From: Escherichia phage arall | Reading direction: 5' to 3' (one strand) | Sequence record: MN850584.1 | DNA: 64,000 nt | Part shown: positions 3,212-25,429 of the stretch, in pieces | Layout: each line of letters begins with the position of its first letter | How positions within the stretch are numbered: position 1 is the stretch's first letter | Notes under the pieces: generated by a model | Told to the model about the DNA's origin: nothing | Databases searched by the model: none | The model's input: the letters and a program-made list of their open reading frames with translations, nothing else | Translations under genes and position numbers: made by a program

Positions 3212-3307
3212 ATGATCAAGAAAGAAAACAGCTTGACGGTTGGAACGATTAACGCTATCATTCTAGCCGTTCCATTTTGGGTTGTAGTAGCGGTTATTAT
3301 CTTTTAA
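3212..3307 (+). CDS. Small hydrophobic peptide (31 aa, MIKKENSLTVGTINAIILAVPFWVVVAVIIF)
   Basis: ATG with AAAGG upstream, single predicted TM helix. Confidence 0.3.
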   Translation: MIKKENSLTVGTINAIILAVPFWVVVAVIIF

Positions 3308-3315
3308 AAATATTC

Positions 3316-3371
3316 TTGACAACGTTTTTTAATCTGATAAGATGTATCACATAGGGCGGCAATAGTGCCGC
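3316..3371 (+). promoter_or_regulatory. Early promoter cassette: TTGACA-16-TAAGAT + 5' hairpin GCGGCA-ATAG-TGCCGC
   Basis: Conserved module CAC-ATAGGGCGG-hairpin then AACAGAAGAGA leader and ATG at 3396. Confidence 0.7.
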
Positions 3372-3395
3372 TCATAACAGAAGAGAGAAATAATC

Positions 3396-3668
3396 ATGGC
3401 ATCATATAGCGCATCAATGATCGTAATGGGTATCACTGGTAAACCTATGCGCGGTGGCGGATCTTTCGCTAACATCAATATTGATGGGCGTTTATCCCTG
3501 GATGCAGCGATCACCGTGGCACGGGAAACATTTAAAAAAGAATGTAATTTCAATAAACAAGATTATCTCGGTTTCGCTATTGAAAAAACCGCGCGCTTTG
3601 TTGATTATAAAAGCCCGAAAATGGTTGATACTACACTAAAAGCGCAAGATGTAGCATTTTTGCTTTAA
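3396..3668 (+). CDS. Hypothetical early protein (90 aa)
   Basis: ORF directly downstream of promoter-hairpin cassette with A/G-rich RBS. Confidence 0.6.
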   Translation: MASYSASMIVMGITGKPMRGGGSFANINIDGRLSLDAAITVARETFKKECNFNKQDYLGFAIEKTARFVDYKSPKMVDTTLKAQDVAFLL

Positions 3669-3671
3669 GGC

Positions 3672-3732
3672 TTGACACTGAAAAATAATTTGGTAATATA
3701 TACTACATAGGGCGGGGAAATGGTTTCCCGCC
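3672..3732 (+). promoter_or_regulatory. Early promoter cassette: TTGACA-16-TAATAT + hairpin GCGGGGAAA-TGG-TTTCCCGC
   Basis: Same module as 3316. Confidence 0.7.
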
Positions 3733-3754
3733 AAATCAAAGAAAGGGTAACACA

Positions 3755-4117
3755 ATGAGCAAGCAAATCAATACTATCATGTTAAACCTGGTATCTTTCC
3801 GCGACGACGTGAAAAATCTTCCACGTGATGCAGTGGATGCACGTATCGAAAGCTATCGCTCACAGATCGCAACGCTACCGCTAAAACGTGATCAACATGC
3901 CGCTAATATGATGCTTAATGCTATGCTTAAAAAGATGATTCAATGTGATCTTACCCTGGCTTATGAATATGCTGGCGATCTCTTTGTAACATATAGCAAG
4001 CCCGTACCAGGTATGAGCACAACCGAAGAATTGCATGCCTTAAATCTGCGACAAGATGCATGGGATAACATGCGCCGTGTTATGGTATGGGTAGAAAGCG
4101 GTAAAATTTACGAATAA
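3755..4117 (+). CDS. Hypothetical early protein (120 aa)
   Basis: ORF after cassette, RBS AAGGG. Confidence 0.6.
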   Translation: MSKQINTIMLNLVSFRDDVKNLPRDAVDARIESYRSQIATLPLKRDQHAANMMLNAMLKKMIQCDLTLAYEYAGDLFVTYSKPVPGMSTTEELHALNLRQDAWDNMRRVMVWVESGKIYE

Positions 4118-4123
4118 AAACGG

Positions 4124-4176
4124 TTGACATTGCACTAAAACCTGATAAGCTATCTTAAAGCGGGAATAGTTCCCGC
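4124..4176 (+). promoter_or_regulatory. Early promoter cassette: TTGACA-16-TAAGCT + hairpin GCGGGAA-TAG-TTCCCGC
   Basis: Module variant with compensatory stem. Confidence 0.65.
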
Positions 4177-4195
4177 TTACATAGGATAAAACTTT

Positions 4196-4342
4196 ATGAA
4201 ACAATATGTAATGAGTATTCACACCAAAAACGGCGCTACTGTTACGACTCCGGCACGGTTTGCACTTGTAAACCGTTGCAAGAGACTAAAACGAGAGCTA
4301 AAAAACAACCGTGCAACGGGCTTTAAACGCTGGGGAGGATAA
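4196..4342 (+). CDS. Small basic protein (48 aa)
   Basis: ATG 20 nt after hairpin; stop precedes GGAGG RBS of next ORF. Confidence 0.45.
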   Translation: MKQYVMSIHTKNGATVTTPARFALVNRCKRLKRELKNNRATGFKRWGG

Positions 4343-4344
4343 TC

Positions 4345-4605
4345 TTGTTTTTTCTAAAAGTTTTTGATAATGTGATCGCTTTTGAACATGCTGCAACGTT
4401 CAACCTGGCGAGATACGCTATCAGGTTTAAAGATAATGTTTATCCCCGTGCTGGTGGCGGTTACACTATCTTTAATCATCGTAACGCTCAATTAACGGAT
4501 ATAACGAATCCAGATCCTGGAGTGTATCGCATAGGTTGGCTACCGTCAAAAGACGCGGCAAGCATGTTTAAGGTATGTAAACTACTAACAGAAGAGGCAA
4601 ATTAG
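4345..4605 (+). CDS. Hypothetical protein (86 aa), probable TTG start
   Basis: GGAGGA 6 nt upstream of TTG at 4345; no in-frame ATG near RBS. Confidence 0.5.
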   Translation: MFFLKVFDNVIAFEHAATFNLARYAIRFKDNVYPRAGGGYTIFNHRNAQLTDITNPDPGVYRIGWLPSKDAASMFKVCKLLTEEAN

Positions 4606-4606
4606 C

Positions 4607-5161
4607 ATGGGGCGTGAGTATGTGATCCAGTCCTGGGTAAAGCATGACGCTAATGATCCGCGCATAATACCAGATGACATGATCGATCACATGGTAGGGT
4701 ATAGCGGGGAGCAGATAGGAAATCGAGCGGCAAAGAGCAACGGCAACACAAAGGCGCGATCCGTTCGCCCTGGTTGGCTGGCAAATGGTAACGCTGACAT
4801 TACAAGCGCCGCAGATCCAAGCGATGACGCTAAAAATAATCCCTTATACAGCATTGATCCGGCTTTTAAGGTGTTAGAAGAATATCCCGCTAAATTAGCC
4901 GCACTAGATAAAGCATACGAAGAAAAACGGGTGGCATGGACTGTATACAACACCGCTAAAATGGTGCTAGATGCAAAATTGATTAAAGCCCAGGAGAAGA
5001 TCAATAAACTTGTTACCATAGCGCAAGAGGAAGACCAGGACGACCAGGAGGAAGAGGAAGAAATCATGCCTATCCTGGAAGAGGAAGAGATCCAGCCATA
5101 CATGCCGACGGAAGAGGAAAAAAGACAAGCCTTAAAAAATTACGAAAATTGTATTGTGTAA
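4607..5161 (+). CDS. Hypothetical protein with strongly acidic C-terminal tail (EDQDDQEEEEEIMPILEEEEIQ)
   Basis: Start overlaps previous stop (TAGCATG); 184 aa. Confidence 0.6.
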   Translation: MGREYVIQSWVKHDANDPRIIPDDMIDHMVGYSGEQIGNRAAKSNGNTKARSVRPGWLANGNADITSAADPSDDAKNNPLYSIDPAFKVLEEYPAKLAALDKAYEEKRVAWTVYNTAKMVLDAKLIKAQEKINKLVTIAQEEDQDDQEEEEEIMPILEEEEIQPYMPTEEEKRQALKNYENCIV

Positions 5162-5164
5162 GGC

Positions 5165-5220
5165 TTGACATATGCAAACAAGCCCCGTAATATGTACCAC
5201 ATAAAGCGGGGCAACGCCCC
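5165..5220 (+). promoter_or_regulatory. Early promoter cassette: TTGACA-17-TAATAT + hairpin GGGGC-AAC-GCCCC
   Basis: Module variant. Confidence 0.6.
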
Positions 5221-5242
5221 ATAAGGTGAAATAAAAAATCAC

Positions 5243-5270
5243 TTGACACCTGAAATCAGTAAGCTATAAT
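5243..5270 (+). promoter_or_regulatory. Sigma70 consensus promoter TTGACA-16-TATAAT (no hairpin)
   Basis: Near-perfect hexamers upstream of 5308. Confidence 0.7.
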
Positions 5271-5307
5271 GCTTATATAAATTAAAGCGTTACTAAGGAA
5301 TAAAATC

Positions 5308-5673
5308 ATGGCTAAAAATATCAATGTTTCTGCTTATGCTACCCTGGCTAACACTGCTAAAATTGAACTATCCAGCATTGAAGCGGTACATATTAGCGCC
5401 CGTCGCTGGTTTCAAAAGTCTTATGGTAATACTTATTTCTCTTTGATGGTTGACGTTGAGATCGGCGGTAAATTGGTCGAAGTGGTTAACGTTCCGTTTC
5501 AATATGGTTATGGTGATCATTTTGATACCGTCGCCCTGGAAGAGTTTAGCAAGGTTATCAACCTGGAAGGTAAAGACTTTTCAAATTATGCTTACCTTTC
5601 CCGTTTTTGCCGTGACAATGGGATCGCTGTATACAGTCATGCAAGCGATGTTAAACGTAAAAAAGATTTATAA
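5308..5673 (+). CDS. Hypothetical early protein (121 aa)
   Basis: RBS AAGGAATAAAATC-ATG; downstream of tandem promoters. Confidence 0.6.
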   Translation: MAKNINVSAYATLANTAKIELSSIEAVHISARRWFQKSYGNTYFSLMVDVEIGGKLVEVVNVPFQYGYGDHFDTVALEEFSKVINLEGKDFSNYAYLSRFCRDNGIAVYSHASDVKRKKDL

Positions 5674-5679
5674 AAAGCA

Positions 5680-5737
5680 TTGACAGCACGAATAAAAAGC
5701 ATATAATACTTATATCGAGAGCGGGAATAGTTCCCGC
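5680..5737 (+). promoter_or_regulatory. Early promoter cassette: TTGACA-16-TATAAT + hairpin GCGGGAA-TAG-TTCCCGC
   Basis: Module. Confidence 0.7.
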
Positions 5738-5761
5738 CTCACTGAAAAAGAGATTAACATC

Positions 5762-6001
5762 ATGGCTAAATCTAAAATGTACAACGGTCACAAAAATAAA
5801 ACTCATTGGAATGTAAGCCTTTGGATCAACAACGATGAAGGTTTTTATAATCTTGCGCGTGAATTTATCGCAGCTAACACCAATAAGAATGACGCAGCGC
5901 GTGATATGATGTTATTTCTTGAAAGTATGGATCAAGATAAAACGCCAGACGGATTCAAGTTCAGTAAAACCGCGATCCGTGCCGCTATGGTTGGAATGTA
6001 A
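5762..6001 (+). CDS. Hypothetical early protein (79 aa)
   Basis: ORF after cassette. Confidence 0.6.
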   Translation: MAKSKMYNGHKNKTHWNVSLWINNDEGFYNLAREFIAANTNKNDAARDMMLFLESMDQDKTPDGFKFSKTAIRAAMVGM

Positions 6002-6096
6002 AGGAGACATAAAAATGAAACATCGTTCGACCTATCTCACAAAACGTTTTAGCTTAGATCATAAATTGGGCTACTACGGAAGAAATAGAAAATAAT

Positions 6097-6155
6097 TTGA
6101 CAACGTTTTAAATTAGTGTAAGATATATCACATAAGGCGGGAAATGGTTTCCCGC
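6097..6155 (+). promoter_or_regulatory. Early promoter cassette: TTGACA-16-TAAGAT + hairpin GCGGGAAA-TGG-TTTCCCGC
   Basis: Module. Confidence 0.7.
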
Positions 6156-6178
6156 CAAATCAAAGAAAGGTTATAATT

Positions 6179-6406
6179 ATGGCTATCGTTATTGTTCGCG
6201 TATCCGGTACGGTTGGAAGCTCCCAGGTAGTAGCAGTTATCACAGAGAAGAAAGGGGATGATCTTCACTCTTCCTTGAATAGCTGGGCGGTCGCTAATTT
6301 TGGTCAGTGGTCGAGCGTCGAGTATATCGAATCCTACCAGGTGCCAACGATTAGCCTGACCGATCTCAACGTTGATCGTCTGTTATGCCTGGATGAATTA
6401 ATCTGA
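6179..6406 (+). CDS. Hypothetical early protein (75 aa)
   Basis: ORF after cassette. Confidence 0.6.
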   Translation: MAIVIVRVSGTVGSSQVVAVITEKKGDDLHSSLNSWAVANFGQWSSVEYIESYQVPTISLTDLNVDRLLCLDELI

Positions 6407-6415
6407 AAAAGATTG

Positions 6416-6471
6416 TTGACACGGGAAAGAAAAAGAGTAAACTGTATTACATAGGGCGGCAATAGTGCCGC
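6416..6471 (+). promoter_or_regulatory. Early promoter cassette: TTGACA-16-TAAACT + hairpin GCGGCA-ATAG-TGCCGC
   Basis: Near-identical to cassette at 3316. Confidence 0.7.
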
Positions 6472-6496
6472 TCATAACAGAAGAGAGATTATCACG

Positions 6497-6712
6497 ATGG
6501 CTAATATCCGCACACTGTTAAAAAATGCAAAGCAAGTTTTATTTTCAGATGACGAATATTTTAATAAAGATATCACAGGCGTGAAAAATCTTAAAGATGT
6601 GAAAGATGTGATAGGTATTCGCGGATCTTTACGTAAAGGTGACACATACGGTAACAAGGTGCAATATAAGTTAGATCAGTTTTATGATTTTACTTTGACA
6701 ATTATTTCATAA
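6497..6712 (+). CDS. Hypothetical early protein (71 aa)
   Basis: ORF after cassette. Confidence 0.6.
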   Translation: MANIRTLLKNAKQVLFSDDEYFNKDITGVKNLKDVKDVIGIRGSLRKGDTYGNKVQYKLDQFYDFTLTIIS

Positions 6713-6718
6713 AACCGC

Positions 6719-6779
6719 TTGCAATCTTAATAAAATAAAGTAAACTAAATTCATCAAGGCGGTGGAATAGCCCACCGCC
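6719..6779 (+). promoter_or_regulatory. Early promoter cassette: TTGCAA-16-TAAACT + hairpin GGCGGTGG-AATAGC-CCACCGCC
   Basis: Module with different stem sequence (covariation). Confidence 0.6.
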
Positions 6780-6803
6780 TAACAAAGAGAAGAGGAAAAT
6801 ATC

Positions 6804-6974
6804 ATGATCACTTTCGCCACCCGTGAAGCCGCTCGCAACGTTGCACGTAAAGTTAACGCCGCCAACCTGGGCGCTACGCTTAAAGCCCCGGTGAAAGATG
6901 AATCAGGTAAATGGATCTTCCCTGGTCTGCGTCACGCTGATAAGCTGGGAACGTTAACGCTAAAAAATAAATAA
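6804..6974 (+). CDS. Small protein (56 aa, MITFATREAARNVARKVNAAN...)
   Basis: ATG 25 nt after hairpin with AGAGGAAAAT RBS; below ORF-track size cut-off. Confidence 0.5.
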   Translation: MITFATREAARNVARKVNAANLGATLKAPVKDESGKWIFPGLRHADKLGTLTLKNK

Positions 6975-6981
6975 GATCCGC

Positions 6982-7039
6982 TTGACAGTAGCATCATTTA
7001 TAAGTAAAGTAACAACAACGGCGGGAAATGGTTTCCCGC
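6982..7039 (+). promoter_or_regulatory. Early promoter cassette: TTGACA-17-TAAAGT + hairpin GCGGGAAA-TGG-TTTCCCGC
   Basis: Module. Confidence 0.7.
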
Positions 7040-7060
7040 CATCAATAAAGAGATAAAATC

Positions 7061-7420
7061 ATGAAATCAGTAAAAGCAATTAAAACCTACATTGTGTCGG
7101 CTATTTCTTTTGAAGGTACTACAACAGAAAAAGAAAAGATCACCGAACTGATGCGCCGTTTTAACTCTGAATACTGGTATCCCGATAATCAAAAACGTTA
7201 CAATTATAACGTGATCAAGGCGATAGCCTCATGGTTACAAGGTTTACCGTCAGACATTAACATCGCCTTTGATTATAACGAGATTGATCATTTATTAATT
7301 GAATGGAAGTACATAAAAGAAACAAGCAAAGAAACAACCGTTACCCGTGAGCGGGAAAATTATTGGTTATATATTGCAAGCATGATCGTAATCCTGGCAA
7401 AACAGCATAACGTGGCGTAA
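7061..7420 (+). CDS. Hypothetical early protein (119 aa)
   Basis: ORF after cassette. Confidence 0.6.
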   Translation: MKSVKAIKTYIVSAISFEGTTTEKEKITELMRRFNSEYWYPDNQKRYNYNVIKAIASWLQGLPSDINIAFDYNEIDHLLIEWKYIKETSKETTVTRERENYWLYIASMIVILAKQHNVA

Positions 7421-7435
7421 TTAAGAGGAAGAAAC

Positions 7436-7573
7436 ATGAACGCATCACAGCAGATCGAAAAATTCAACCGCAGCAAGGCGCGTAAAGATTGGAACGAAGA
7501 GATCACCAAAAAAGGCGACAAGCGGAACAAAACAAAGAGAGATCGCAGCACAAAAAGATACTGGAACGAATAA
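7436..7573 (+). CDS. Small lysine/arginine-rich protein (45 aa)
   Basis: AAGAGGAAGAAAC-ATG; ends just before terminator. Confidence 0.45.
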   Translation: MNASQQIEKFNRSKARKDWNEEITKKGDKRNKTKRDRSTKRYWNE

Positions 7574-7580
7574 CAAAAAA

Positions 7581-7603
7581 GGGCGCAATAAGCGCCCTTT
7601 TAG
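7581..7603 (+). terminator. Rho-independent terminator (GGGCGC-AATAA-GCGCCC + TTTT)
   Basis: GC stem + T-run. Confidence 0.7.
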
Positions 7604-7692
7604 CTTATATAGAGGCTTGTTACCCATAGGCAATGGTAACGCCAGGATAAGCCTATAAATCAACGTTAAACGGCTTTACAGGAGCTTTAAAA

Positions 7693-7875
7693 ATGAAATT
7701 AGACGAAATAAGCAAGGCACTAGCCCAGGGGCAAAGGTTATGCGCCCGATATCGTGATCAATATGGCTTCATAACTAGCGGCGTGATCCTGGGGATTGAA
7801 GGCAATAAGATTTTTATTGACACGTTGAAAAACGTTGTATATAGTGACAATATAATCTCAATAAAACATATATGA
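7693..7875 (+). CDS. Hypothetical protein (60 aa)
   Basis: ORF with RBS AGGAG. Confidence 0.5.
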   Translation: MKLDEISKALAQGQRLCARYRDQYGFITSGVILGIEGNKIFIDTLKNVVYSDNIISIKHI

Positions 7876-7883
7876 GGCAAGAA

Positions 7884-8285
7884 ATGAAAAAATTATTGAT
7901 CGCTGGTTTAATCTCTTTTGGCATGGTTGGAACATCTAGCGCGGCGATATCCTCCACAGTAGCAGAATTAAGCGCCGTTGATGCAATGGAAAACGTCATG
8001 CTTATTAATAATGCGATCCCCGATGAAATCATGGAGGATTCACACATGATCGCTTATGGTGCTGTTACACAACTAACGGCAAAAATAGATAAATCTATTG
8101 TTAACGGCTTAAATGAAGATGTGCCATGTGAAATTATTACCAGTGTGCTGACTACTCAAAATTTTACGCCGTGGTTAAAAAGTATTCAAAAAGTACACAG
8201 TACAGCCGCAGATCGTAGCAATGAAAAACTAGTGTCAGCACTTGCAACGTATACCCTAGCAAAATGCACCGAGATAAAAGATTGA
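7884..8285 (+). CDS. Secreted/periplasmic hypothetical protein (signal peptide MKKLLIAGLISFGMVGTSSA)
   Basis: Start moved to MKKLL (RBS GAGGCAAGAA); classic n-h-c signal peptide with AxA. Confidence 0.55.
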   Translation: MKKLLIAGLISFGMVGTSSAAISSTVAELSAVDAMENVMLINNAIPDEIMEDSHMIAYGAVTQLTAKIDKSIVNGLNEDVPCEIITSVLTTQNFTPWLKSIQKVHSTAADRSNEKLVSALATYTLAKCTEIKD

Positions 8286-8311
8286 CAACATAGAAAGCAC
8301 GTTATAAGATA
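8283..8311 (+). promoter_or_regulatory. Sigma70-like promoter TTGACA-17-TAAGAT
   Basis: Hexamers upstream of 8333. Confidence 0.5.
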
Positions 8312-8332
8312 CACACAACAAAGGAGAACTAC

Positions 8333-8635
8333 ATGAACGGCATAGCTAAAACGTTTTTTCTTTTTTCTGGTGTAAATGATCCATCAATAAAAGTCGATAG
8401 TGTAAAAGAAAACAATACTATCACCGCTAAATTGTTTCAAGATGAAACAAATAACGTGCTAATCATTAATCTTAAAGAAATAACGAAAGGTTATTATACT
8501 ATTGCTTACCATGCGATCTATCATGCGGGTACTAGTGAGGAAGTGCAAACAAGCAACAACGAAAGCGCGGCGCTACCTGGTGATCTGGTGCTGGGCGTTA
8601 TCAGTTTAATTGTCAATGATTTTTTTAAGGAGTAA
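8333..8635 (+). CDS. Hypothetical protein (100 aa), possible N-terminal signal sequence
   Basis: RBS AAGGAGAACTAC-ATG. Confidence 0.55.
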   Translation: MNGIAKTFFLFSGVNDPSIKVDSVKENNTITAKLFQDETNNVLIINLKEITKGYYTIAYHAIYHAGTSEEVQTSNNESAALPGDLVLGVISLIVNDFFKE

Positions 8636-8639
8636 AACC

Positions 8640-8735
8640 ATGCCCTATTTACATTTATTTTTCGGTATCTTATTGACAGGATCTTTTTTCTTCTGTATGC
8701 TTGTTTCTATTGTAAACCACGTTTTAAGACATTAA
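8640..8735 (+). CDS. Small membrane peptide (31 aa)
   Basis: RBS AAGGAG 8 nt upstream; one hydrophobic helix. Confidence 0.35.
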   Translation: MPYLHLFFGILLTGSFFFCMLVSIVNHVLRH

Positions 8736-8744
8736 GGAAACAGC

Positions 8745-8864
8745 ATGAAAATTATTCCCGTACAGTATAGCGTAATAAATCCAGCATATGAGGAAGGAAG
8801 GAAAACAAGCATGGCTTTATGTTGTATTGCTACTATAGCCATGTTGTTATATATTGTGTTTTAA
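8745..8864 (+). CDS. Small membrane peptide (39 aa)
   Basis: RBS AAGGAAACAGC-ATG; C-terminal hydrophobic segment. Confidence 0.35.
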   Translation: MKIIPVQYSVINPAYEEGRKTSMALCCIATIAMLLYIVF

Positions 8865-19874: not shown

Positions 19875-20104
19875 ACATCGGACAACCAATTTTTGATGCA
19901 GATACTGGTCAATATGCAGTGATTGTTGCTCGTATGAGCGGTGATGACTTTATTGTTTCAGAACTACTGGAATCAGATCCGCAACTGCGTGTGGTTTGTG
20001 ACCTATATCTTCGAGACGAAAGTGATCGCATTGCACTGAAAGAAGATGGTATGCTTTACTACACCTGGACTAGAGATCCTGGTGTAAAGGAGGTAGAGGT
20101 ATAA
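19865..20104 (+). CDS. Hypothetical protein (79 aa)
   Basis: RBS AAGGAGACAACAC. Confidence 0.55.
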   Translation: MQLNIGQPIFDADTGQYAVIVARMSGDDFIVSELLESDPQLRVVCDLYLRDESDRIALKEDGMLYYTWTRDPGVKEVEV

Positions 20105-20403
20105 TGGTAAGGAATAGGGGTTTACATAAAAGAAGACACCTTACTTACTGGCATCGCAAAGTACATGAACCTGTATCAAAGAAAGAATGGCAATACCTTC
20201 CTTATGGAAAGGAGCGAAGGAAGTATTTGTTAGCTCATTTAAGGGTACATGGTTCGCTTCCTGTTAACAGTAAGTGGCAATTGCAAACAGCTTATGACGA
20301 AGATATGAAATATCTGTTAAAGAGAGGCATTATTTGCCTTGTTAAGATAGGACGATGGAAATCTCGTCAATCTTATATCGTACTTAAACAGGAGAAACGA
20401 TGA
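20104..20403 (+). CDS. Basic hypothetical protein (99 aa), possibly nucleic-acid binding
   Basis: RBS AAGGAGGTAGAGG; K/R-rich. Confidence 0.55.
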   Translation: MVRNRGLHKRRHLTYWHRKVHEPVSKKEWQYLPYGKERRKYLLAHLRVHGSLPVNSKWQLQTAYDEDMKYLLKRGIICLVKIGRWKSRQSYIVLKQEKR

Positions 20404-20651
20404 ATATCAAAGATGTTGTAGCATACGTAGAAGATGAAGTTAAAAACCATACAAGTTTACTGAAAGTAATGGTTGTGGTTAAAGATGGTATTGGACAAGT
20501 AAACGTACAACATGTCTTATCTGACACTGTATATAATGTGTTTGAATGTAAAGAAACACCTCATGGAGTACGTGTGGTTTATATTGATAACAATTTCAAA
20601 GAATGTGTGAGACATACCTTAGAAAATGAACTAAGGATCACAATCTTATGA
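20400..20651 (+). CDS. Hypothetical protein (83 aa)
   Basis: ATGA overlap. Confidence 0.55.
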   Translation: MNIKDVVAYVEDEVKNHTSLLKVMVVVKDGIGQVNVQHVLSDTVYNVFECKETPHGVRVVYIDNNFKECVRHTLENELRITIL

Positions 20652-20821
20652 GTTATTATGTTGTACCTTATGCCAATAAGTGGAGAGTAAGAGAAACTTG
20701 TTTTCTGTTCTCCTGGTGGGCTACATTCGGAGATGGCTGTGGAAATGATACAGGGAAGCCTGTAGAGTATGACACAAAAGAAGAATGTGAACAGTGGATA
20801 AAATTAACACAAAGATGTTGA
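20648..20821 (+). CDS. Small Cys/Trp-containing protein (57 aa)
   Basis: ATGA overlap with previous gene. Confidence 0.4.
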   Translation: MSYYVVPYANKWRVRETCFLFSWWATFGDGCGNDTGKPVEYDTKEECEQWIKLTQRC

Positions 20822-20846
20822 CACGATCTTAACTTCTTGTTAGTAT
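20818..20846 (+). promoter_or_regulatory. Sigma70-like promoter TTGACA-17-TAGTAT (internal to array)
   Basis: Hexamers upstream of 20875. Confidence 0.5.
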
Positions 20847-20874
20847 CAATGTGTACTAACGATAAGGAGGGTTT

Positions 20875-21099
20875 ATGAAGTCTGTAAACAAGTTGCAACA
20901 ATTTTTGTTATCAACAGCAATCTTTTTGCTTTTGTTAATTGGTATTCTGTATGGTGCATCTAACTTATACAATCTACATAATGATGTAGAACAGAATAAA
21001 GAGAAGTGCATCATTCTAAAACACAAGAAACAAGCAGAAGATTTCTTAAAGAATAAGTGTTACAACTACATTGATTATGAGGAGACAAACAATGATTAA
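20875..21099 (+). CDS. Small membrane-anchored protein, paralog family B
   Basis: RBS AAGGAGGG; N-terminal TM; KEKCIILKHKKQAEDFLKNKC block. Confidence 0.55.
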   Translation: MKSVNKLQQFLLSTAIFLLLLIGILYGASNLYNLHNDVEQNKEKCIILKHKKQAEDFLKNKCYNYIDYEETNND

Positions 21100-21334
21100 A
21101 GAATTAGGTATGCGAGTATACAGTGAGTGGACTCCAAGCAATGGCCCAGGAGTTGTTGCAGCTAAATGTATCAATGGTCGTATTGAGTACCTGGAAGGGT
21201 ATGAAGATAATGAAGAATTAGTAGATTATGCTAAATCTTTTATTGAAGATGATACAGACTTTATTGTATTATATGATACAGGAGAGTTAGAGTATGGATA
21301 TGATGGAGATGGGGATATCTTTGAACTTCAATAA
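21092..21334 (+). CDS. Acidic hypothetical protein (80 aa)
   Basis: Start at MIKELG with RBS GAGGAG. Confidence 0.5.
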   Translation: MIKELGMRVYSEWTPSNGPGVVAAKCINGRIEYLEGYEDNEELVDYAKSFIEDDTDFIVLYDTGELEYGYDGDGDIFELQ

Positions 21335-21541
21335 GAGTAGTAAGTAAGGTATAAAGAGTATATAGTTAGTTATAGAGTTAGTAACATTACATATACTCTT
21401 TCCATGTATAACATGGAATATTCTCTACCTCGCTATCGCTCGGTATATAAGATTAGGGTAGCATGTTTTTTACGAAAAGTAAAACTGTTTATACCGATTG
21501 ATAGCAGGTTTTTAATAGATTCTATCTGTGAGGAGTAGAAA

Positions 21542-21760
21542 GTGTACAAATTATATAAAGGAAAAGATAAGTTTACGGGTAATACATCTGGTTTCTATGT
21601 AACACCACGCGGCGTTGCCGTATTTGATTGGATTCCTGGTACTCCAGATCGTGAAATGATCTCTCTTGTAAAACTGTCGGAACAAGAGTACACTTACGGT
21701 GACATTACAACATTCTATTCTCGTGCAGAAAATCCAAAACTGATTGCGGAGTGGGAATAA
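21542..21760 (+). CDS. Hypothetical protein (72 aa), GTG start
   Basis: RBS GAGGAG 8 nt upstream of GTG. Confidence 0.5.
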   Translation: MYKLYKGKDKFTGNTSGFYVTPRGVAVFDWIPGTPDREMISLVKLSEQEYTYGDITTFYSRAENPKLIAEWE

Positions 21761-22023
21761 TGGTTACACGATATGATTTAGAGGTGTACAGCCAAGGTGC
21801 TGCTGGTCAATGTGATATTGTACCAGATCCAGAAGGAGACTATGTTCTTCTTGCTGATTACAACAAGCTAGAAGAAAGACTTCTGGCTGTGTATGCTAAA
21901 GAGAACAAAACAATCTGTCCTTATTGCAATGGAATGGGTTGGGTGGTTGCAGATGTTGGACAAATGTATGAGTGTGTACCTTGTAAAACCACAGGCTTTA
22001 TTGAAAAGGATACTGACAAATGA
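21760..22023 (+). CDS. Cys-rich hypothetical protein, paralog family C (CPYCNG...CVPC)
   Basis: TAATG overlap; CxxC pairs suggest Zn binding. Confidence 0.55.
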   Translation: MVTRYDLEVYSQGAAGQCDIVPDPEGDYVLLADYNKLEERLLAVYAKENKTICPYCNGMGWVVADVGQMYECVPCKTTGFIEKDTDK

Positions 22024-22268
22024 CTGTAGCAGATAAAATGAGAGAACTGGCAGAAAACGCAGAACTTAACAAAGCAAAGGAGAGTTTACAAAACATCTAC
22101 GCGTATATTGAAAGAGCAGCTAAAGATGGAGACAGAGAAGCCGCTATATACACGCTTTATCCAACTTTTGTAAAAGTTAGTTTGGATGCTGAAGGTTTTT
22201 CAACTTTTATTGATACAGAAACATCTCATTACGATGAAAACTTTACTCGAATAGTTATTCGATGGTAA
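22020..22268 (+). CDS. Hypothetical protein (82 aa)
   Basis: ATGA overlap. Confidence 0.55.
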   Translation: MTVADKMRELAENAELNKAKESLQNIYAYIERAAKDGDREAAIYTLYPTFVKVSLDAEGFSTFIDTETSHYDENFTRIVIRW

Positions 22269-22373
22269 ATTTCTGATATTTATGCGCCCTGGCTACCTGG
22301 GCGTAATAAATTCAGCTTATATTTGATCCGCGCCTTCGGCGCTTAGGCAAAGCCACGCCACATAGGAGAGTTT

Positions 22374-22784
22374 ATGTTCAAATGGTTAAAAGAGTTTCTA
22401 ACATCTTTGGCAGAACCTAAGCAAGATGTTATTAAAAGCTCTATCACAGGAAAACCGCTTGTTATAGTTACAGGCGTCTTTGGTCATGGGTTTTCTCTTA
22501 AACAAACAGACATAGGTTTACAGGGATGTTTGATTAGTTTTAGAATCACTCAATTAGGAGATAATAGACAAACAATCTTAGACCTTTTCAATGGGGAGTT
22601 TGATGATTATTTATCTAAGAGTGGTAAAGAACGTCTGATCGAACATATAAAACACCGCTATGAGCATGGTGGTTACTACTTAGATACAAAACGTAATGCA
22701 CAAGGTGATCTTGACATAGTTCGTATAGCGTGGGATAATGAATTTAAAACTAAACTTGGTAAACTTCTGGAGGAGTTGTGGTAA
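22374..22784 (+). CDS. Hypothetical protein (136 aa)
   Basis: RBS AGGAGAG. Confidence 0.55.
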   Translation: MFKWLKEFLTSLAEPKQDVIKSSITGKPLVIVTGVFGHGFSLKQTDIGLQGCLISFRITQLGDNRQTILDLFNGEFDDYLSKSGKERLIEHIKHRYEHGGYYLDTKRNAQGDLDIVRIAWDNEFKTKLGKLLEELW

Positions 22785-22960
22785 ATATTAAAACAGGTGA
22801 TATTGTACGTCTTGCCAGTGAAGAAATGTTAATGACTGTAATGGTATCTACCTATGATACTTGCGAAGTGGTATGGTTTGATGTTAATGAACAACTACAG
22901 AAAGCTACATTTGATAAACGTATGCTTCGTAAAGTTGAAGAAGTGAAGGAGGAAGAATAA
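22778..22960 (+). CDS. Hypothetical protein (60 aa)
   Basis: Overlaps previous gene. Confidence 0.5.
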   Translation: MVNIKTGDIVRLASEEMLMTVMVSTYDTCEVVWFDVNEQLQKATFDKRMLRKVEEVKEEE

Positions 22961-22961
22961 T

Positions 22962-23174
22962 ATGACAATGTTGCTTCGTATGTTTGTGTTTCTTATGTTC
23001 TGGATTATCGTTGGTAACGGTATTGTGTTTTTGATTTTTCCTGAAGTAATGACAGGTAATGAAAATAAGGCAGTGCCTTACATTATGCTTATCGGTTACG
23101 GTATTGGTACACTCGGATTACTGTTTGCTGACTGGTTAGTCAATACTTTGTTCTCTAAGTACAGGAACAACTAA
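22962..23174 (+). CDS. Membrane protein (70 aa, two TM segments)
   Basis: RBS AGGAGGAAGAATAAT. Confidence 0.55.
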   Translation: MTMLLRMFVFLMFWIIVGNGIVFLIFPEVMTGNENKAVPYIMLIGYGIGTLGLLFADWLVNTLFSKYRNN

Positions 23175-23175
23175 T

Positions 23176-23448
23176 ATGTCGGAAAAATTACCTAATGTTT
23201 TCTTTTGTTTTGTAGATTGTGTTACACAAGAAATTATAGTTGACGAAGAAGGTATGTTTACTTATTTTGCATCTGAAGAAGAGGCAAAACTGTCAGCTAT
23301 GAAATGTATAAGCCAATTGTCAGTACCTGCTGTCAACAGGTTCGGTATTGCACAGGTGTATAAAACAGTAACAGAGTTTACACCAGATCGAAAACTAACT
23401 TTTCTTAACGTTCACTTTGTTTGTAAGTTTAGTGAACTACGACATTAA
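23176..23448 (+). CDS. Hypothetical protein (90 aa)
   Basis: Start 2 nt after previous stop. Confidence 0.5.
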   Translation: MSEKLPNVFFCFVDCVTQEIIVDEEGMFTYFASEEEAKLSAMKCISQLSVPAVNRFGIAQVYKTVTEFTPDRKLTFLNVHFVCKFSELRH

Positions 23449-23461
23449 ATCAGGAGTGAAA

Positions 23462-24061
23462 ATGAAAGAATATTGGAGTGGTGAGAAGGGCTTACTAAAG
23501 CCAGGAATGCTTTTGCGAGTAAAGAACATGTTGATCACACAGGATTACATAATGCCTAATCCTGGGGCATTAGTAGAATTCCTTACTGCACGAGATCAAC
23601 CTGGGGTTGGTGAAATGTGGATTGTAACGTGGATATCTCTTGATGGTAAGTTGCGCGTTGCTCCTATCGACCCAAAACATTTGGAATCTCCTTACGCCAG
23701 CATTGATTCTCGGATCATAGATTTGGCTAGAGTTTATAAGGCTAGGACTGGTGTAGAATTAGATGTAGAAATTTTAAATCAATGTATTGACTTCTTACCT
23801 GAAAAAGTGCATAATGCACAACAAGAAGATAGCGGTTTAGAAGTTATTCTTCTGAATGATGGGATGTTCTCTGGTTTGGCATCTGTAGATTTTCCAATAA
23901 CATTAAGATTGTTACCTGGGGAATACGTACTGGATGAAACAACTATTGCTATATCCTCTAAAATTTTAGAACTCATTCCAGGTGCAAGGTGTGTTGGTGA
24001 TACCTCTTCCTTGCTGTTTACTCTGAATGAAGAAGCCATTATAGTTAAAAAGGAGAAGTAA
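23462..24061 (+). CDS. Hypothetical protein (199 aa)
   Basis: Start at MKEYW with RBS CAGGAGTGAAA. Confidence 0.6.
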   Translation: MKEYWSGEKGLLKPGMLLRVKNMLITQDYIMPNPGALVEFLTARDQPGVGEMWIVTWISLDGKLRVAPIDPKHLESPYASIDSRIIDLARVYKARTGVELDVEILNQCIDFLPEKVHNAQQEDSGLEVILLNDGMFSGLASVDFPITLRLLPGEYVLDETTIAISSKILELIPGARCVGDTSSLLFTLNEEAIIVKKEK

Positions 24062-24166
24062 ATGATGACGTTTATTGTTGGTGTTGTTGTTGGTTATTTT
24101 GGTCACAAGTACCAGGATGTTATCATCGCTAAAGTTGACGAAGTAATCGAAAAATTTAAACACTAA
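24062..24166 (+). CDS. Small membrane peptide (34 aa)
   Basis: TAAATG overlap; hydrophobic N-terminus. Confidence 0.35.
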   Translation: MMTFIVGVVVGYFGHKYQDVIIAKVDEVIEKFKH

Positions 24167-24217
24167 TTTTCTAAAAGGCTGTACTATTGTGCAGCCTATC
24201 TTTCAAAGGAGAGTAAA

Positions 24218-24391
24218 ATGTTCAAAGATACCAATTATAAATGTGTACATTGTGGTAAATCTTTTGGTGATCACCAAGCTAAAACATTCAATTGTCCACG
24301 AAAAGGGCGAGGTAGCTTTAAAGGTTTTAATCCATCCCACGTTTATTCTCCCAACTACGAGAAACCAGAAGAAGAAAAATTTGTAATCTGA
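24218..24391 (+). CDS. Small zinc-ribbon protein (57 aa; CVHCG...CPRKG)
   Basis: RBS AAGGAGAG; two CxxC-like pairs. Confidence 0.5.
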   Translation: MFKDTNYKCVHCGKSFGDHQAKTFNCPRKGRGSFKGFNPSHVYSPNYEKPEEEKFVI

Positions 24392-24400
24392 GGAGGCAAT

Positions 24401-24688
24401 ATGGAACTAGTACAAGAAGTTTATGAAAAACTAAAAGAAGAGAATCTTGATTGGCCTGAACATGCTCTTATTGTCGTCAAAGATACTAATGGTGAAATAA
24501 AATTCTCAAGTGTAAGTGAAGACGATGTTGTTTTAAGTCCTACAGGATATTATATGAGAGGTGTTACGTGCCTATTCAACACCAAAGTGTATCCTGAAGT
24601 TAAACTTAGTTACGGTGAACCTGATCATCCAGAAATCGTTACACGTAATGAATATGAAAATTATTATTTTGCTCGTGAAAGCAAATAA
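24401..24688 (+). CDS. Hypothetical protein (95 aa)
   Basis: RBS GAGGAGG. Confidence 0.6.
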   Translation: MELVQEVYEKLKEENLDWPEHALIVVKDTNGEIKFSSVSEDDVVLSPTGYYMRGVTCLFNTKVYPEVKLSYGEPDHPEIVTRNEYENYYFARESK

Positions 24689-24696
24689 GGAAAGCT

Positions 24697-25020
24697 ATGC
24701 AAAAAATAAACACTGGTTCTCGTCCTAAACAGAAGCAAACAAAAGCAAGGGTATCTTATGTTGACAACTCTTGTTATAATTTCAAAAATGTTAAAGAAGT
24801 TATCATTGATGAAAAAGAAGGTTTGATTCACATTTCATCTGAACGTTTGAAAGGTAGTGTTACTCTTCGTGAGAATGTATCTATACCTATGAAAGTTGTG
24901 GCTACACTCTGTGTTGATAAACCAGATGTTGTTAACTACTATGTGTTCCGTGATAGTTGTATTTCATTACATAATAAGATTTTTAAATCTTCGCACGTTA
25001 AAACAAAACACATTGTATAA
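24697..25020 (+). CDS. Hypothetical protein (107 aa)
   Basis: RBS AAGGAAAGCT. Confidence 0.6.
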   Translation: MQKINTGSRPKQKQTKARVSYVDNSCYNFKNVKEVIIDEKEGLIHISSERLKGSVTLRENVSIPMKVVATLCVDKPDVVNYYVFRDSCISLHNKIFKSSHVKTKHIV

Positions 25021-25027
25021 CACATAA

Positions 25028-25049
25028 ACCCGCTTCGGCGGGTTTTCTT
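25028..25049 (+). terminator. Rho-independent terminator, identical to 111-133
   Basis: ACCCGC-TTCG-GCGGGT + TTTCTTG. Confidence 0.75.
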
Positions 25050-25094
25050 GTATGTGTGTTTTTATTTGTCTTAGCATAAACAATAGGAGGTATT

Positions 25095-25316
25095 ATGTCT
25101 GTAGTTGTAGAAGGTAGTATTGGTTTCTTAGTAGATAACCCTCACCCTTTCGTGGTTAAGGTTCATATTCAAGAAAAGGTAAGCAACAATACGTGGTTGT
25201 GCTTGTTAGATAGTAAGATACACTCTTATACAGAGGTTTATCTTCACACTTGGCAAATTGGTACGATAACAGCAGAGGATGAATTGATAATTGAACTATA
25301 TGAACGAGATCTGTAG
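25095..25316 (+). CDS. Hypothetical protein (73 aa)
   Basis: RBS AGGAGGT. Confidence 0.55.
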   Translation: MSVVVEGSIGFLVDNPHPFVVKVHIQEKVSNNTWLCLLDSKIHSYTEVYLHTWQIGTITAEDELIIELYERDL

Positions 25317-25396
25317 ATGACTTTATTAGAGAGTATCGTAGTGTTAATCATCTTTATCATTGTTGTCATAGGATATTTTACAGAAGACTAAAATAA

Positions 25397-25429
25397 AGCC
25401 CCTAGAATCGCTTCTAGGGGCTTTTGTTT
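25397..25429. terminator. Bidirectional terminator hairpin (11-bp stem AGCCCCTAGAA/TTCTAGGGGCT) at convergence of + and - blocks
   Basis: Long perfect stem, T-runs on both sides. Confidence 0.7.

What the first reader, a model, noticed from the sequence alone, without database searches (positions are those of the whole stretch)
3300..25400. Two contrasting expression architectures on the same strand
Genes in 3300-12000 mostly have individual sigma70-consensus promoters and occasional terminators. Genes in 13800-25300 are packed with overlapping stop and start codons and few recognisable promoters. This suggests different temporal classes or control mechanisms, separated by the structured region at 12000-13800.
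Basis: partly seen in the sequence, partly recalled or inferred. Interest (0 to 1): 0.4.

Follow-up and report, generated by a model that had tools for sequence, protein, structure and literature searches.

The report
Promoter-hairpin cassettes versus packed operon
In this phi92-like coliphage, a 9-kb block of small genes is built from repeated promoter-plus-hairpin cassettes that related phages swap gene by gene, while the next 11.5-kb block is an ordinary tightly packed operon; the two blocks lie at opposite ends of the linear phage chromosome, so the contrast is real but of a kind already known from T4-like phages.

Summary
The window comes from a Justusliebigvirus (phi92-like, 95-97% identical to KKE7M, ESCO8, muut, Paula).

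Region A (3308-11987):
- About 25 small + strand genes, median gap 82 nt, weak Shine-Dalgarno (SD) sites.
- 16 near-consensus TTGACA-N16/17-TAnnnT promoters, against 0.3 expected.
- 14 intergenic regions are copies of one cassette: promoter, then a GC hairpin 10-12 nt after the -10, then an A/G-rich leader and the ATG.

Region B (13810-25316):
- 39 genes, median gap 1 nt, strong SD sites.
- Colinear at 97.9% identity among relatives.
- Not promoter-less: 7 embedded sigma70-like sites, against 0.5 expected.

Cassettes occur only in region A. They coincide with indel breakpoints between relatives. In phAPEC8 they match features annotated as 'PHIRE promoters'. They resemble the PeSL cassettes of T4-type phages.

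The 'structured region' between A and B holds the homolog of phi92's 343-bp direct terminal repeat (13075-13417). A is therefore the right end and B the left end of the virion DNA.

Different temporal classes are possible but unproven. Both blocks look dependent on host RNA polymerase. This is a new member of a known kind, of modest interest.

The parts
3308..11987 (+). Region A: array of about 25 small ORFs, most with their own promoter. It is homologous to phi92 gp226-gp248, the right-terminal block of the linear genome.
3316..3395 (+). Cassette: promoter 3316-3343 (TTGACA-16-TAAGAT), hairpin 3354-3373, leader, then gene 3396-3668
3672..3754 (+). Cassette: promoter 3672-3699, hairpin 3711-3732, then gene 3755-4117
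4124..4195 (+). Cassette: promoter 4124-4151, hairpin 4158-4178, then gene 4196-4342. It is the right-hand crossover partner of the muut deletion.
5165..5307 (+). Double unit: promoter 5165-5193 with a degenerate hairpin at 5208-5220, then the perfect promoter 5243-5270 (TTGACA-16-TATAAT), then gene 5308-5673. Paula and EmilieFrey carry an extra gene here.
5680..5761 (+). Cassette: perfect promoter 5680-5707, hairpin 5717-5740, then gene 5762-6001
6097..6178 (+). Cassette: promoter 6097-6124, hairpin 6136-6156 (GGCGGGAAATGGTTTCCCGCC), then gene 6179-6406
6416..6496 (+). Cassette: promoter 6416-6443, hairpin 6454-6473, then gene 6497-6712
6719..6803 (+). Cassette with a degenerate promoter (TTGCAA-16-TAAACT) and a compensated stem variant at 6757-6780 (GGCGGTGG..CCACCGCC), then gene 6804-6974
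6982..7060 (+). Cassette: promoter 6982-7010, hairpin 7020-7040, then gene 7061-7420
7577..7601 (.). GGGCGC-N5-GCGCCC terminator-type hairpin after gene 7436-7573. Paula annotates it on both strands.
7817..7845 (+). Promoter without a cassette hairpin (TTGACA-17-TATAGT), inside the 3' end of gene 7693-7875
8282..8310 (+). Promoter without a hairpin, upstream of gene 8333-8635
8673..8701 (+). Promoter without a hairpin
8894..8921 (+). Promoter without a hairpin (TTGACA-16-TAAAAT), upstream of gene 8965-9288
9289..9370 (+). Cassette: promoter 9289-9317, hairpin 9330-9350, then gene 9371-9655
9657..9739 (+). Cassette: promoter 9657-9685, hairpin 9696-9718, then gene 9740-9910
9911..9958 (+). Hairpin and leader only, with no promoter. 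Hairpin 9916-9942, then gene 9959-10228.
10230..10310 (+). Cassette: promoter 10230-10257 (TTGATA, extended -10), divergent hairpin 10268-10291, then gene 10311-10415. It is a chimeric junction relative to Paula and muut.
10672..10753 (+). Cassette: promoter 10672-10699, hairpin 10711-10729, then gene 10754-11143
11155..11183 (+). Intrinsic terminator (GGGGCGC..GCGCCCC followed by T6) after gene 10754-11143
11529..11557 (+). Promoter (TTGACA-17-TATTAT) of the last A gene, 11604-11987 (T4 gp30.8 family). It has the leader but no hairpin.
12002..12022 (+). Intrinsic terminator that closes region A
11988..13809 (.). Non-coding junction between the right and left ends of the genome
13075..13417 (.). 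Homolog (97.7% identity) of the phi92 343-bp direct terminal repeat. The ends of the BME3 record map to 13416 and 13075.
13810..25316 (+). Region B: 39 tightly packed, translationally coupled small genes with strong SD sites. It is homologous to phi92 gp002-gp036, the left-terminal block.
15151..15179 (+). Embedded sigma70-like promoter (TTGACA-17-TATCTT), 28 nt upstream of the start at 15207. Kept in phi92.
17314..17342 (+). Embedded promoter, 36 nt upstream of the start at 17378. Kept in phi92.
20818..20846 (+). Promoter in the 53-nt gap upstream of the start at 20875. Kept in phi92.
22711..22739 (+). Embedded promoter (TTGACA-17-GATAAT, with TG), 39 nt upstream of the start at 22778. Kept in phi92.
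25026..25045 (.). Bidirectional terminator hairpin after gene 24697-25020
25395..25424 (.). Bidirectional terminator between region B and the convergent - strand cluster

Best explanation
The window spans the concatemer junction of a phi92-like linear genome with short direct terminal repeats.

Region A, the right-terminal 8.7 kb, is a hyperplastic accessory block made of autonomous expression cassettes. Each cassette holds, in order:
- an AT-rich upstream tract;
- a near-consensus sigma70 promoter;
- a GC-rich hairpin of about -15 kcal/mol that begins 10-12 nt after the -10, which is about +3 to +6 of the transcript;
- an A/G-rich leader with a weak SD;
- a small ORF.

Inferred function of region A:
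- Host RNA polymerase fires these promoters immediately after DNA entry.
- The hairpin sits at the 5' end of each cassette's own mRNA, where it would hinder RppH and 5'-end-dependent RNase E attack.
- In read-through transcripts the same hairpin lies 3' of the upstream cistron.

Shown: the repeated cassettes serve as patches of homology at which relatives have gained, lost or replaced single genes.

Region B, the left-terminal 11.5 kb, has the genome's normal architecture. It is a conserved, colinear block of translationally coupled genes. It is read as long polycistronic mRNAs from a few sigma70-like promoters embedded in upstream coding sequence, and it ends at two terminators.

Both blocks are most likely early, that is, dependent on host polymerase. 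They differ in autonomy, in the likely speed and strength of expression, in how translation starts, and in evolutionary turnover. They probably do not differ in the polymerase that reads them.
For: Shown:
- Identity of the phage and gene homology.
- Gap, SD and GC3 contrasts.
- Promoter excess: 16 against 0.28 expected in A and 7 against 0.49 in B, coding strand only.
- The cassette alignment and the position of the hairpin.
- The covariance model finds 14 copies in the window, all on the + strand within 3344-10742, and none elsewhere in 64 kb.
- In the whole phi92 genome it finds 14 copies in 138.3-146.5 kb and only 1 elsewhere.
- All 55 distinct copies from 7 loci fold into a hairpin at the same place. 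Median dG is -15.3, median z is -3.8, and there are 40 different hairpin cores.
- Hairpins with unrelated stems occupy the same offset after promoters in phAPEC8 and in a Vequintavirus.
- None of the cassette hairpins meets the terminator criterion on the + strand.
- Upstream tracts are 73% A+T, against 60% for the region.
- 13 of 19 rearrangement breakpoints lie in cassettes that cover 21% of the span (binomial p = 1e-5). HSP ends overlap at the junctions.
- Junctions are chimeric: the muut crossover lies inside the -35, and an extra Paula gene is flanked by two cassettes.
- B is a single 11.8-kb HSP at 97.9% identity in three relatives.
- Terminal repeat mapping (papers PMC12210895 and PMC12695924).
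- Some A genes belong to families found in other coliphages: T7 gp1.1 and T4 gp30.8.

Established knowledge: RppH and RNase E need single-stranded 5' ends, which explains stabilisation by 5' stem-loops (review PMC3997798).
Against: - There are no expression data. Transcription start sites are assumed to lie about 7 nt after the -10.
- With 3-6 unpaired 5' nucleotides, protection could be partial.
- Column-wise covariation on the model-fitted alignment is only modest and not cleanly above a slid control: 27 double changes against 12.3 +/- 2.8, but a slide of -1 gives 26.
- Breakpoints fall between genes partly because selection removes events that disrupt genes.
- No strong promoter was found at the head of region B. 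Only sites of at most 9/12 occur in 13418-13809, so the transcription of B1-B5 is unexplained.
- In T4-type PeSLs the stem-loop was shown to terminate transcription (PMC2839356). An attenuator role is therefore not excluded here.
Confidence: 0.6

Rival explanations
1. A and B are different temporal classes. A is immediate-early, from host promoters. B is a middle or delayed class that needs a phage-made factor, a modified RNA polymerase, or read-through.
For: - B has no strong promoter at its head and far fewer promoters per kb than A.
- B uses GGAG-type SD sites and A does not. A post-transcriptional discriminator could act on that difference.
- The rV5 paper proposes an Srd-like anti-sigma switch in the wider group (PMC3606486).
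Against: - B carries 14 times the expected number of sigma70-like sites, all on the coding strand. Four are conserved in phi92 just upstream of gene starts.
- No shared non-sigma70 motif occurs in B's gaps, and there is no excess of the T4-late-like motif.
- The replication and nucleotide-metabolism cluster on the - strand has the same architecture as B.
Confidence: 0.3
2. The cassette hairpins are transcription terminators or attenuators, as shown for T4-type PeSLs. They would insulate each gene so that every ORF is monocistronic and dosage does not build up along the array.
For: - A PeSL stem-loop reduced lacZ expression as strongly as rrnB T1 (PMC2839356).
- The hairpins are stable and GC-rich.
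- Only three canonical terminators exist across 8.7 kb that hold 16 strong promoters.
Against: - The hairpin lies downstream of its own promoter, so it would also stop its own transcript.
- It is followed by A-rich sequence with at most 3 T in the next 8 nt, and none was called as a + strand terminator.
Confidence: 0.2
3. The palindromes are DNA operators for a dimeric phage repressor that shuts off early transcription by binding at about +3 to +25.
For: - The position is typical of repressor operators.
- The commonest variant, GGCGGGAAATGGTTTCCCGCC, recurs almost unchanged in several cassettes.
Against: - There are 40 different hairpin cores. The two arms change together within a single genome, for example GGAA/TTCC, GGCA/TGCC and GTGG/CCAC. 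That preserves pairing, not a fixed recognition sequence.
- No DNA-binding family was detected in the neighbouring candidate genes.
Confidence: 0.1
4. The contrast is evolutionary history only. A is a dump of horizontally acquired moron-like genes and B is an ancestral operon. There is no functional difference in timing or control.
For: - A is mosaic and B is colinear.
- GC3 and skew differ between the blocks.
- A genes have homologs in T4, T7 and rV5.
Against: - The cassette design, with its fixed hairpin offset, leader and weak SD, is conserved across two subfamilies. That argues for selection on how these genes are expressed.
Confidence: 0.25

Closest known systems
PeSL (promoter-early stem-loop) mobile regulatory cassettes of T4-type phages (Arbiol et al. 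2010, PMC2839356; Comeau et al. 2014, PMC4122927)
   Same: - A strong sigma70-consensus promoter with an AT-rich upstream tract and an adjacent G/C-tract stem-loop.
- Repeated in the intergenic spaces of a hyperplastic block of small ORFs of unknown function.
- Indels and replacements between close relatives have their crossovers in the cassettes.
   Different: - The host lineage is Stephanstirmvirinae, not T4-like.
- No sequence similarity was found beyond the promoter: BLAST of a cassette hits only phi92, phAPEC8 and rV5-type phages.
- The hairpin position is fixed, 10-12 nt after the -10 and so inside the 5' UTR. T4-type PeSLs have five variable positions.
- No U-tract follows the hairpin.
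- Terminator activity and mini-circles were not tested here.
'Putative promoter determined with PHIRE' and 'host dependent promoter determined with MEME' features in the phAPEC8 RefSeq record NC_020079
   Same: They are the same elements. The MEME features are the sigma70 promoters. The 20-nt PHIRE features fall on the leader and hairpin that my model detects. The same dichotomy is visible there: these annotated promoters lie only in the cassette block, followed by a 1.5-kb gap and then a packed block.
   Different: The record labels the hairpin half as a second promoter. It does not link the elements to RNA structure, to recombination or to the genome ends.
5'-terminal stem-loop mRNA stabilisers of E. 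coli (ompA and papA 5' UTRs; reviewed in PMC3997798)
   Same: A stable hairpin within a few nucleotides of the 5' end, followed by an unstructured leader and a ribosome binding site.
   Different: The distance from the real 5' end is unknown here, and no half-life data exist.
Immediate-early versus delayed-early organisation of large lytic phages (T4 early genes, T7 class I, T5 pre-early terminal block). This comparison rests on my own knowledge.
   Same: Host-polymerase promoters drive many small host-takeover ORFs near the genome ends. Distal genes are reached by long transcripts.
   Different: The order of DNA entry, any anti-termination and any shut-off factor are unknown for phi92-like phages. 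The terminal repeat is only 343 bp and non-coding, unlike T5's 10-kb repeat that carries the pre-early genes.
Morons of lambdoid phages: an autonomous promoter-gene-terminator insert. This comparison rests on my own knowledge.
   Same: Self-contained transcription units that carry accessory genes and turn over horizontally.
   Different: Here they form a tandem array that shares one cassette design, in a virulent myovirus, and mostly lacks individual terminators.

Membership tests
PeSL-type regulatory cassette | Near-consensus sigma70 promoter (-35 TTGACA, -10 TATAAT-like, 16-18 nt spacer) | tested here: met
   16 sites in A against 0.28 expected, coding strand only
PeSL-type regulatory cassette | AT-rich tract upstream of the -35 | tested here: met
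   The 25 nt upstream of 17 promoters are 73% A+T, against 60% for the region, with A-tracts next to the -35
PeSL-type regulatory cassette | Adjacent stable stem-loop with G-tract and C-tract arms | tested here: met
   14 copies in the window. 55 distinct copies across relatives all fold, with median dG -15.3 and z -3.8.
PeSL-type regulatory cassette | Concentrated in a hyperplastic region of small ORFs | tested here: met
   All window copies lie in 3344-10742. In phi92, 14 of 15 copies lie in the right-terminal 8 kb. The region is mosaic among relatives.
PeSL-type regulatory cassette | Indel or replacement breakpoints between close relatives lie in the cassettes | tested here: met
   13 of 19 breakpoints lie in 21% of the span (p = 1e-5), with overlapping HSP ends and chimeric junctions. 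Caveat: selection also favours intergenic breakpoints.
PeSL-type regulatory cassette | The stem-loop acts as a transcription terminator or attenuator | not testable with these tools
   The sequence argues against a canonical intrinsic terminator, because no T-run follows the hairpin. Activity needs an experiment.
PeSL-type regulatory cassette | Formation of cassette mini-circles during infection | not testable with these tools
   Needs inverse PCR on infected cells
PeSL-type regulatory cassette | Resident in a T4-type (Tevenvirinae-like) genome | tested here: not met
   The window is a Justusliebigvirus (Stephanstirmvirinae). It is therefore an analogue in another lineage, not a member of the original set.
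Linear genome with short direct terminal repeats (phi92 type) | The sequence homologous to the annotated DTR lies between the A and B blocks | tested here: met
   The phi92 DTR (343 bp, identical at both record ends) maps to 13075-13417 at 97.7% identity. The BME3 record ends map to 13416 and 13075.
Linear genome with short direct terminal repeats (phi92 type) | Physical ends of this particular isolate at those positions | not testable with these tools
   Needs read-coverage analysis of the termini or run-off sequencing. The window shows a single collapsed copy.
Intrinsic (rho-independent) terminator, for the cassette hairpins | GC stem-loop followed by a T-run | tested here: not met
   No cassette hairpin was called on the + strand. 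The downstream 8 nt contain at most 3 T. The three GGGCGC..GCGCCC hairpins at 7577, 11155 and 12002 do meet the criterion.
Rfam RNA families | A match at the gathering score | tested here: not met
   0 matches in the 64-kb window

The most novel reading that the evidence does not exclude
The two architectures may encode an entry-coupled programme.
- A and B are the two ends of a linear chromosome that enters the cell end-first, so one block would be exposed to host polymerase well before the other.
- This would be a T5- or T7-like polarity not yet described for Stephanstirmvirinae.
- The nearly invariant terminal non-coding DNA could act as entry, packaging or host-sensing signals. That DNA includes the DTR, the Fur-box-like palindromes and the inward-facing DTR promoter.
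- In addition, the conserved 5' leader and hairpin (CACATAGGGCGG...) may be a specific handle for a phage factor that co-regulates or shuts off all cassette mRNAs together.
Probability: 0.12. Interest if true: 0.65.

Novelty: new member of a known kind. Interest (0 to 1): 0.35.

Why it matters
- It gives a concrete, testable map of early transcription for a widely isolated group of therapeutic-candidate coliphages (phi92, phAPEC8 and rV5 relatives): about 20 promoters, 14 leader hairpins, 5 terminators and the position of the genome ends.
- It shows that PeSL-style 'plug-and-play' expression cassettes are not peculiar to T4-like phages.
- It re-interprets the elements annotated as 'PHIRE promoters' in phAPEC8.
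- It marks the cassette block as the place where accessory genes turn over, so it is a likely location for host-takeover or anti-defence genes. It is also a place where foreign genes could probably be inserted, with a ready-made promoter and leader.
- It warns that adjacency in circularly permuted assemblies can hide the true end-of-genome position of such blocks.

Tried and rejected
- The MAFFT alignment of hairpin segments gave a poor consensus structure with RNAalifold: 3 pairs at -0.47 kcal/mol. I imposed the structure by hand for the covariance model.
- Column-wise covariation on the model-fitted alignment was inconclusive, because stems differ in length and register. The observed score is 0.125 against 0.086 in shuffles, but a slide of -1 gives 0.216. 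I relied on per-copy folding instead.
- A T4-late-type (TATAAATA) or rV5-type (TggTAaAAtA) motif as a B promoter is rejected. Only one TATAAATA occurs on the + strand of B, and it abuts the SD.
- tRNA genes or Rfam families in A, B or the junction: none found.
- Function of the A and B proteins. Pfam gives only T4 gp30.8, T7 gp1.1, DUF7249 and DUF7202. All 20 proteins scanned against PHROGs fall in 'unknown function' families, with one faint goF-like hit.
- The 'putative transcription factor' labels of EmilieFrey are not supported by Pfam.
- Literature searches for transcriptomes or promoter studies of phi92, phAPEC8 or rV5-like phages found only the rV5 genome paper and no time-course data. 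The phi92 genome paper is not held.
- Cassette hairpins as intrinsic terminators, and as repressor operators, were considered and ranked low. See the rival explanations.

Full report
**What the window is.** Megablast of 3300-25400 finds 243 phage records. The best are Justusliebigvirus (phi92-like) and Phapecoctavirus myophages of about 146-150 kb, at 95-97% identity (KKE7M, ESCO8, muut, Paula, EmilieFrey). In their annotation almost every gene in this stretch is 'hypothetical'. Relative to the phi92 reference, 3300-12000 corresponds to gp226-gp248, the last genes of the record. 13800-25300 corresponds to gp002-gp036, the first genes.

**Checking the observation.** I built a gene map from ORFs, SD scoring and the relatives' annotation.
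- Region A has 25 + strand genes (3396-11987, mean 86 aa).
- Region B has 39 + strand genes (13810-25316, mean 94 aa).
- 11988-13809 is non-coding.

Intergenic gaps are 82.5 nt (median) in A and 1 nt in B (Mann-Whitney p = 3.7e-6). 22 of 38 B junctions are at most 3 nt or overlap, against 3 of 24 in A. Coding density is 0.76 in A and 0.96 in B.

With a strict promoter definition (perfect TTGACA, 16-18 nt spacer, a -10 with at least 4/6 matches including A2 and T6), the counts on the coding strand are as follows:

| Stretch | Observed | Expected | Maximum in 300 shuffles | Other strand |
|---|---|---|---|---|
| Region A | 16 | 0.28 | 3 | 0 |
| Region B | 7 | 0.49 | 4 | 0 |
| - strand cluster 25400-61000 | 8 | 1.2 | 6 | 1 |

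At the scanning tool's lax threshold, B shows no excess (40 against 39.8) and A a small one (56 against 41.3 +/- 6.0). The description is therefore right, with one correction: B is not devoid of promoters. Seven of its eight TTGACA hexamers have a -10 exactly 17 nt downstream. Four of them (15151, 17314, 20818, 22711) lie 28-39 nt upstream of a gene start and are kept in phi92.

Two further contrasts emerged:
- A genes have weak SD sites (GAG or AAGG; duplex dG -5.0). B genes have AGGAG(G) sites (-8.8; p = 9e-5).
- GC3 is 0.396 in A and 0.306 in B.

The - strand replication and nucleotide-metabolism cluster looks like B. B is therefore the genomic norm and A is the exception.

**What region A is made of.** Printing the A intergenic regions side by side shows that they are copies of one unit of about 85 nt:
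- an A-rich tract;
- TTGACA, 16-17 nt, TAnnnT;
- about 10 nt ending in CA(C/T)ATAG;
- a GC-rich hairpin, commonly GGCGGGAAATGGTTTCCCGCC;
- an A/G-rich leader such as AAATCAAAGAAAGG or ACAGAAGAGAGA;
- the ATG.

Fourteen units carry the hairpin. One of these has lost its promoter, and one or two have degenerate promoters. Five or six further promoters lack the hairpin.

The hairpin starts 10-12 nt after the -10 hexamer and has a dG of -14 to -19 kcal/mol. If transcription starts about 7 nt after the -10, which is an inference, the hairpin starts at about +3 to +6 of the mRNA.

A covariance model of the leader and hairpin gave these results:
- 14 hits in the window, all on the + strand between 3344 and 10742, and none elsewhere in 64 kb.
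- In the complete phi92 genome, 14 hits between 138.3 and 146.5 kb and a single one elsewhere, upstream of gp182.

All 55 distinct copies collected from seven loci fold into a hairpin at the same place. Median dG is -15.3, median z against shuffles is -3.8, and there are 40 different hairpin cores. The arms change together, for example GGAA/TTCC, GGCA/TGCC, GTGG/CCAC and GGGG/CCCC.

In phAPEC8 and in a Vequintavirus, promoters of the homologous block are followed at the same offset by hairpins with other stems.

A formal column-by-column covariation count is only weakly positive and is not clean against a slid control, because stems differ in length. I therefore treat 'structure is selected' as well supported but not proven.

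No cassette hairpin is followed by a T-run or was called as a + strand terminator. Three hairpins of a different type (GGGCGC-N5-GCGCCC followed by Ts) at 7577, 11155 and 12002 are the real terminators of the block.

**The cassettes are recombination joints.** I aligned A with Paula, EmilieFrey, muut and phi92.
- A breaks into 5-9 colinear pieces per comparison.
- 13 of the 19 distinct breakpoints lie within cassettes that occupy 21% of the span (binomial p = 1e-5).
- At several junctions the HSP ends overlap by 7-26 nt, which means the same cassette sequence flanks the indel.

Examples:
- muut lacks 3064-4115. Its junction is a chimera that crosses over inside the -35 hexamer.
- Paula has an extra gene flanked by two cassettes that both start AAAAAATAGTTTGACAA, where the window has a single chimeric cassette.

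Selection against gene disruption inflates the share of intergenic breakpoints, so the flanking-repeat evidence is the more telling part.

Region B, by contrast, aligns as one 11.8-kb HSP at 97.9% identity with three relatives. It has only two differences from phi92: the first genes next to the terminus and one extra gene.

**The 'structured region' is the genome end.**
- The phi92 RefSeq record annotates identical 343-bp direct terminal repeats at both ends. This sequence maps once, at 97.7% identity, to window 13075-13417.
- The first and last bases of the BME3 record map to 13416 and 13075. Its paper reports 342-bp DTRs (PMC12210895).
- Another paper states that Stephanstirmvirinae genomes end in DTRs (PMC12695924).

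In the virion, A is therefore the right-terminal block, transcribed toward the end. B is the left-terminal block, transcribed inward. The window shows them joined, as in a concatemer or a circularised assembly.

The DNA from 13075 to about 13625 is almost invariant among five phages and then becomes variable up to the first B gene. Only weak promoter candidates (at most 9/12) lie there. How the first five B genes are transcribed is therefore an open point.

**Mechanism.**
- Shown: the architecture, the cassette composition, its confinement to A, its role as crossover sites, and the terminal position.
- Inferred: (i) host sigma70 polymerase initiates at the A promoters immediately after entry, so each ORF is an autonomous unit. 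(ii) The hairpin at the 5' end protects the mRNA, because RppH and RNase E need single-stranded 5' ends (PMC3997798). In read-through RNA it lies 3' of the upstream cistron and could block exonucleases. (iii) B is read as long polycistronic RNAs with translational coupling, from embedded promoters, and stops at 25026-25045 and 25395-25424.

Both blocks then belong to the host-polymerase (early) programme. They differ in onset, strength and mRNA handling. A separate temporal class for B remains possible; I put it at about 0.3.

**Comparison with what is known.** The closest system is the PeSL cassette of T4-type phages. A PeSL is a strong sigma70 promoter, an AT-rich tract and a G/C stem-loop, repeated in hyperplastic regions and mediating modular shuffling (PMC2839356, PMC4122927).
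- Five of the testable defining features are met here.
- The lineage criterion is not met. The hairpin position is fixed rather than variable. Terminator activity and mini-circles could not be tested.
- A BLAST of one cassette hits only phi92, phAPEC8 and rV5-type phages (135 records), so there is no detectable common origin with T4 PeSLs.

The elements have been seen before without this interpretation. The phAPEC8 record annotates the promoter halves as 'host dependent promoter (MEME)' and the leader-hairpin halves as 'promoter (PHIRE)'. These annotated promoters lie only in the cassette block, which is followed by a 1.5-kb gap and a packed block. The rV5 paper lists 33 consensus promoters and a 'non-coding' box.

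Protein content is uninformative apart from the T7 gp1.1 and T4 gp30.8 family members in A.

**Verdict.** It is explained as a PeSL-like cassette array (a hyperplastic, terminal accessory block) next to a conventional conserved operon, with the genome ends between them. The temporal-class interpretation is unproven. This is a new member of a known kind, with interest about 0.35.

Noticed in passing
window 12235-12247, 12293-12305, 13151-13166, 13346-13358, 2351-2363, 2375-2387: Fur-box-like palindrome AATGATAATCATT. There are three exact copies and three with one mismatch. The copy at 13151 extends to AATGATAATCATTATC, which is 16 of the 19 bases of the E. coli Fur consensus as I recall it. 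In all there are 19 hits with at most 2 mismatches, against 6.6 +/- 2.6 expected. They cluster in the terminal non-coding DNA, two of them inside the DTR homolog, and in the non-coding stretch just upstream of region A. They could be host Fur sites or sites for a phage packaging or replication protein.
   Followed up: partly
window 2127-2331: Three iteron-like direct repeats of about 63 nt (spacing 67 and 75 nt, 71-83% identical), immediately upstream of the 2351/2375 palindromes, in a non-coding AT-rich stretch. This may be a replication origin or a regulatory array.
   Followed up: no
window 13075-13625: The DTR homolog and the 200 bp inside it are almost invariant among five phages. That is more conserved than the neighbouring genes. 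The sequence then becomes variable up to the first B gene. The first one or two B genes are replaced between relatives.
   Followed up: partly
L004 138-166 and L005 (phi92 148407); window 13212-13240: The phi92 DTR carries TTGACA-N17-TAGACT. At the left end this site points into region B. In the window and three other relatives the -35 is TTGGCA.
   Followed up: partly
L012 13975-14018 (phi92 113975-114018, - strand): This is the only copy of the leader-hairpin element outside the right-terminal block of phi92. It lies just upstream of gp182, a putative membrane-bound tellurium-resistance protein.
   Followed up: no
L010 1074-2572 (BME3 PP239276, 145873-147371): The end of the BME3 record repeats junction sequence. 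One segment matches window 13712-12682 and is followed by a second segment matching 13489-13075. The annotated 'DTR-L' is offset by 73 nt from the record end. This is an odd representation of the terminus.
   Followed up: no
window 6002-6088: An 88-nt insert relative to phi92 and muut. It starts with an SD and ATG (aggagacataaaaATG) and a short ORF remnant. It looks like the scar of a lost cassette gene.
   Followed up: no
window 3300-25300: The two blocks differ in composition as well as layout. GC3 is 0.396 in A and 0.306 in B. AT skew is about +0.13 in A and about +0.03 in B. GC skew is about 0.08 in A and about 0.17 in B.
   Followed up: partly
window 14542-14994: The fourth B gene gives a faint PHROG hit (E = 2e-6, no stretch passing on its own) to the T4 goF mRNA-metabolism modulator family.
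   Followed up: no
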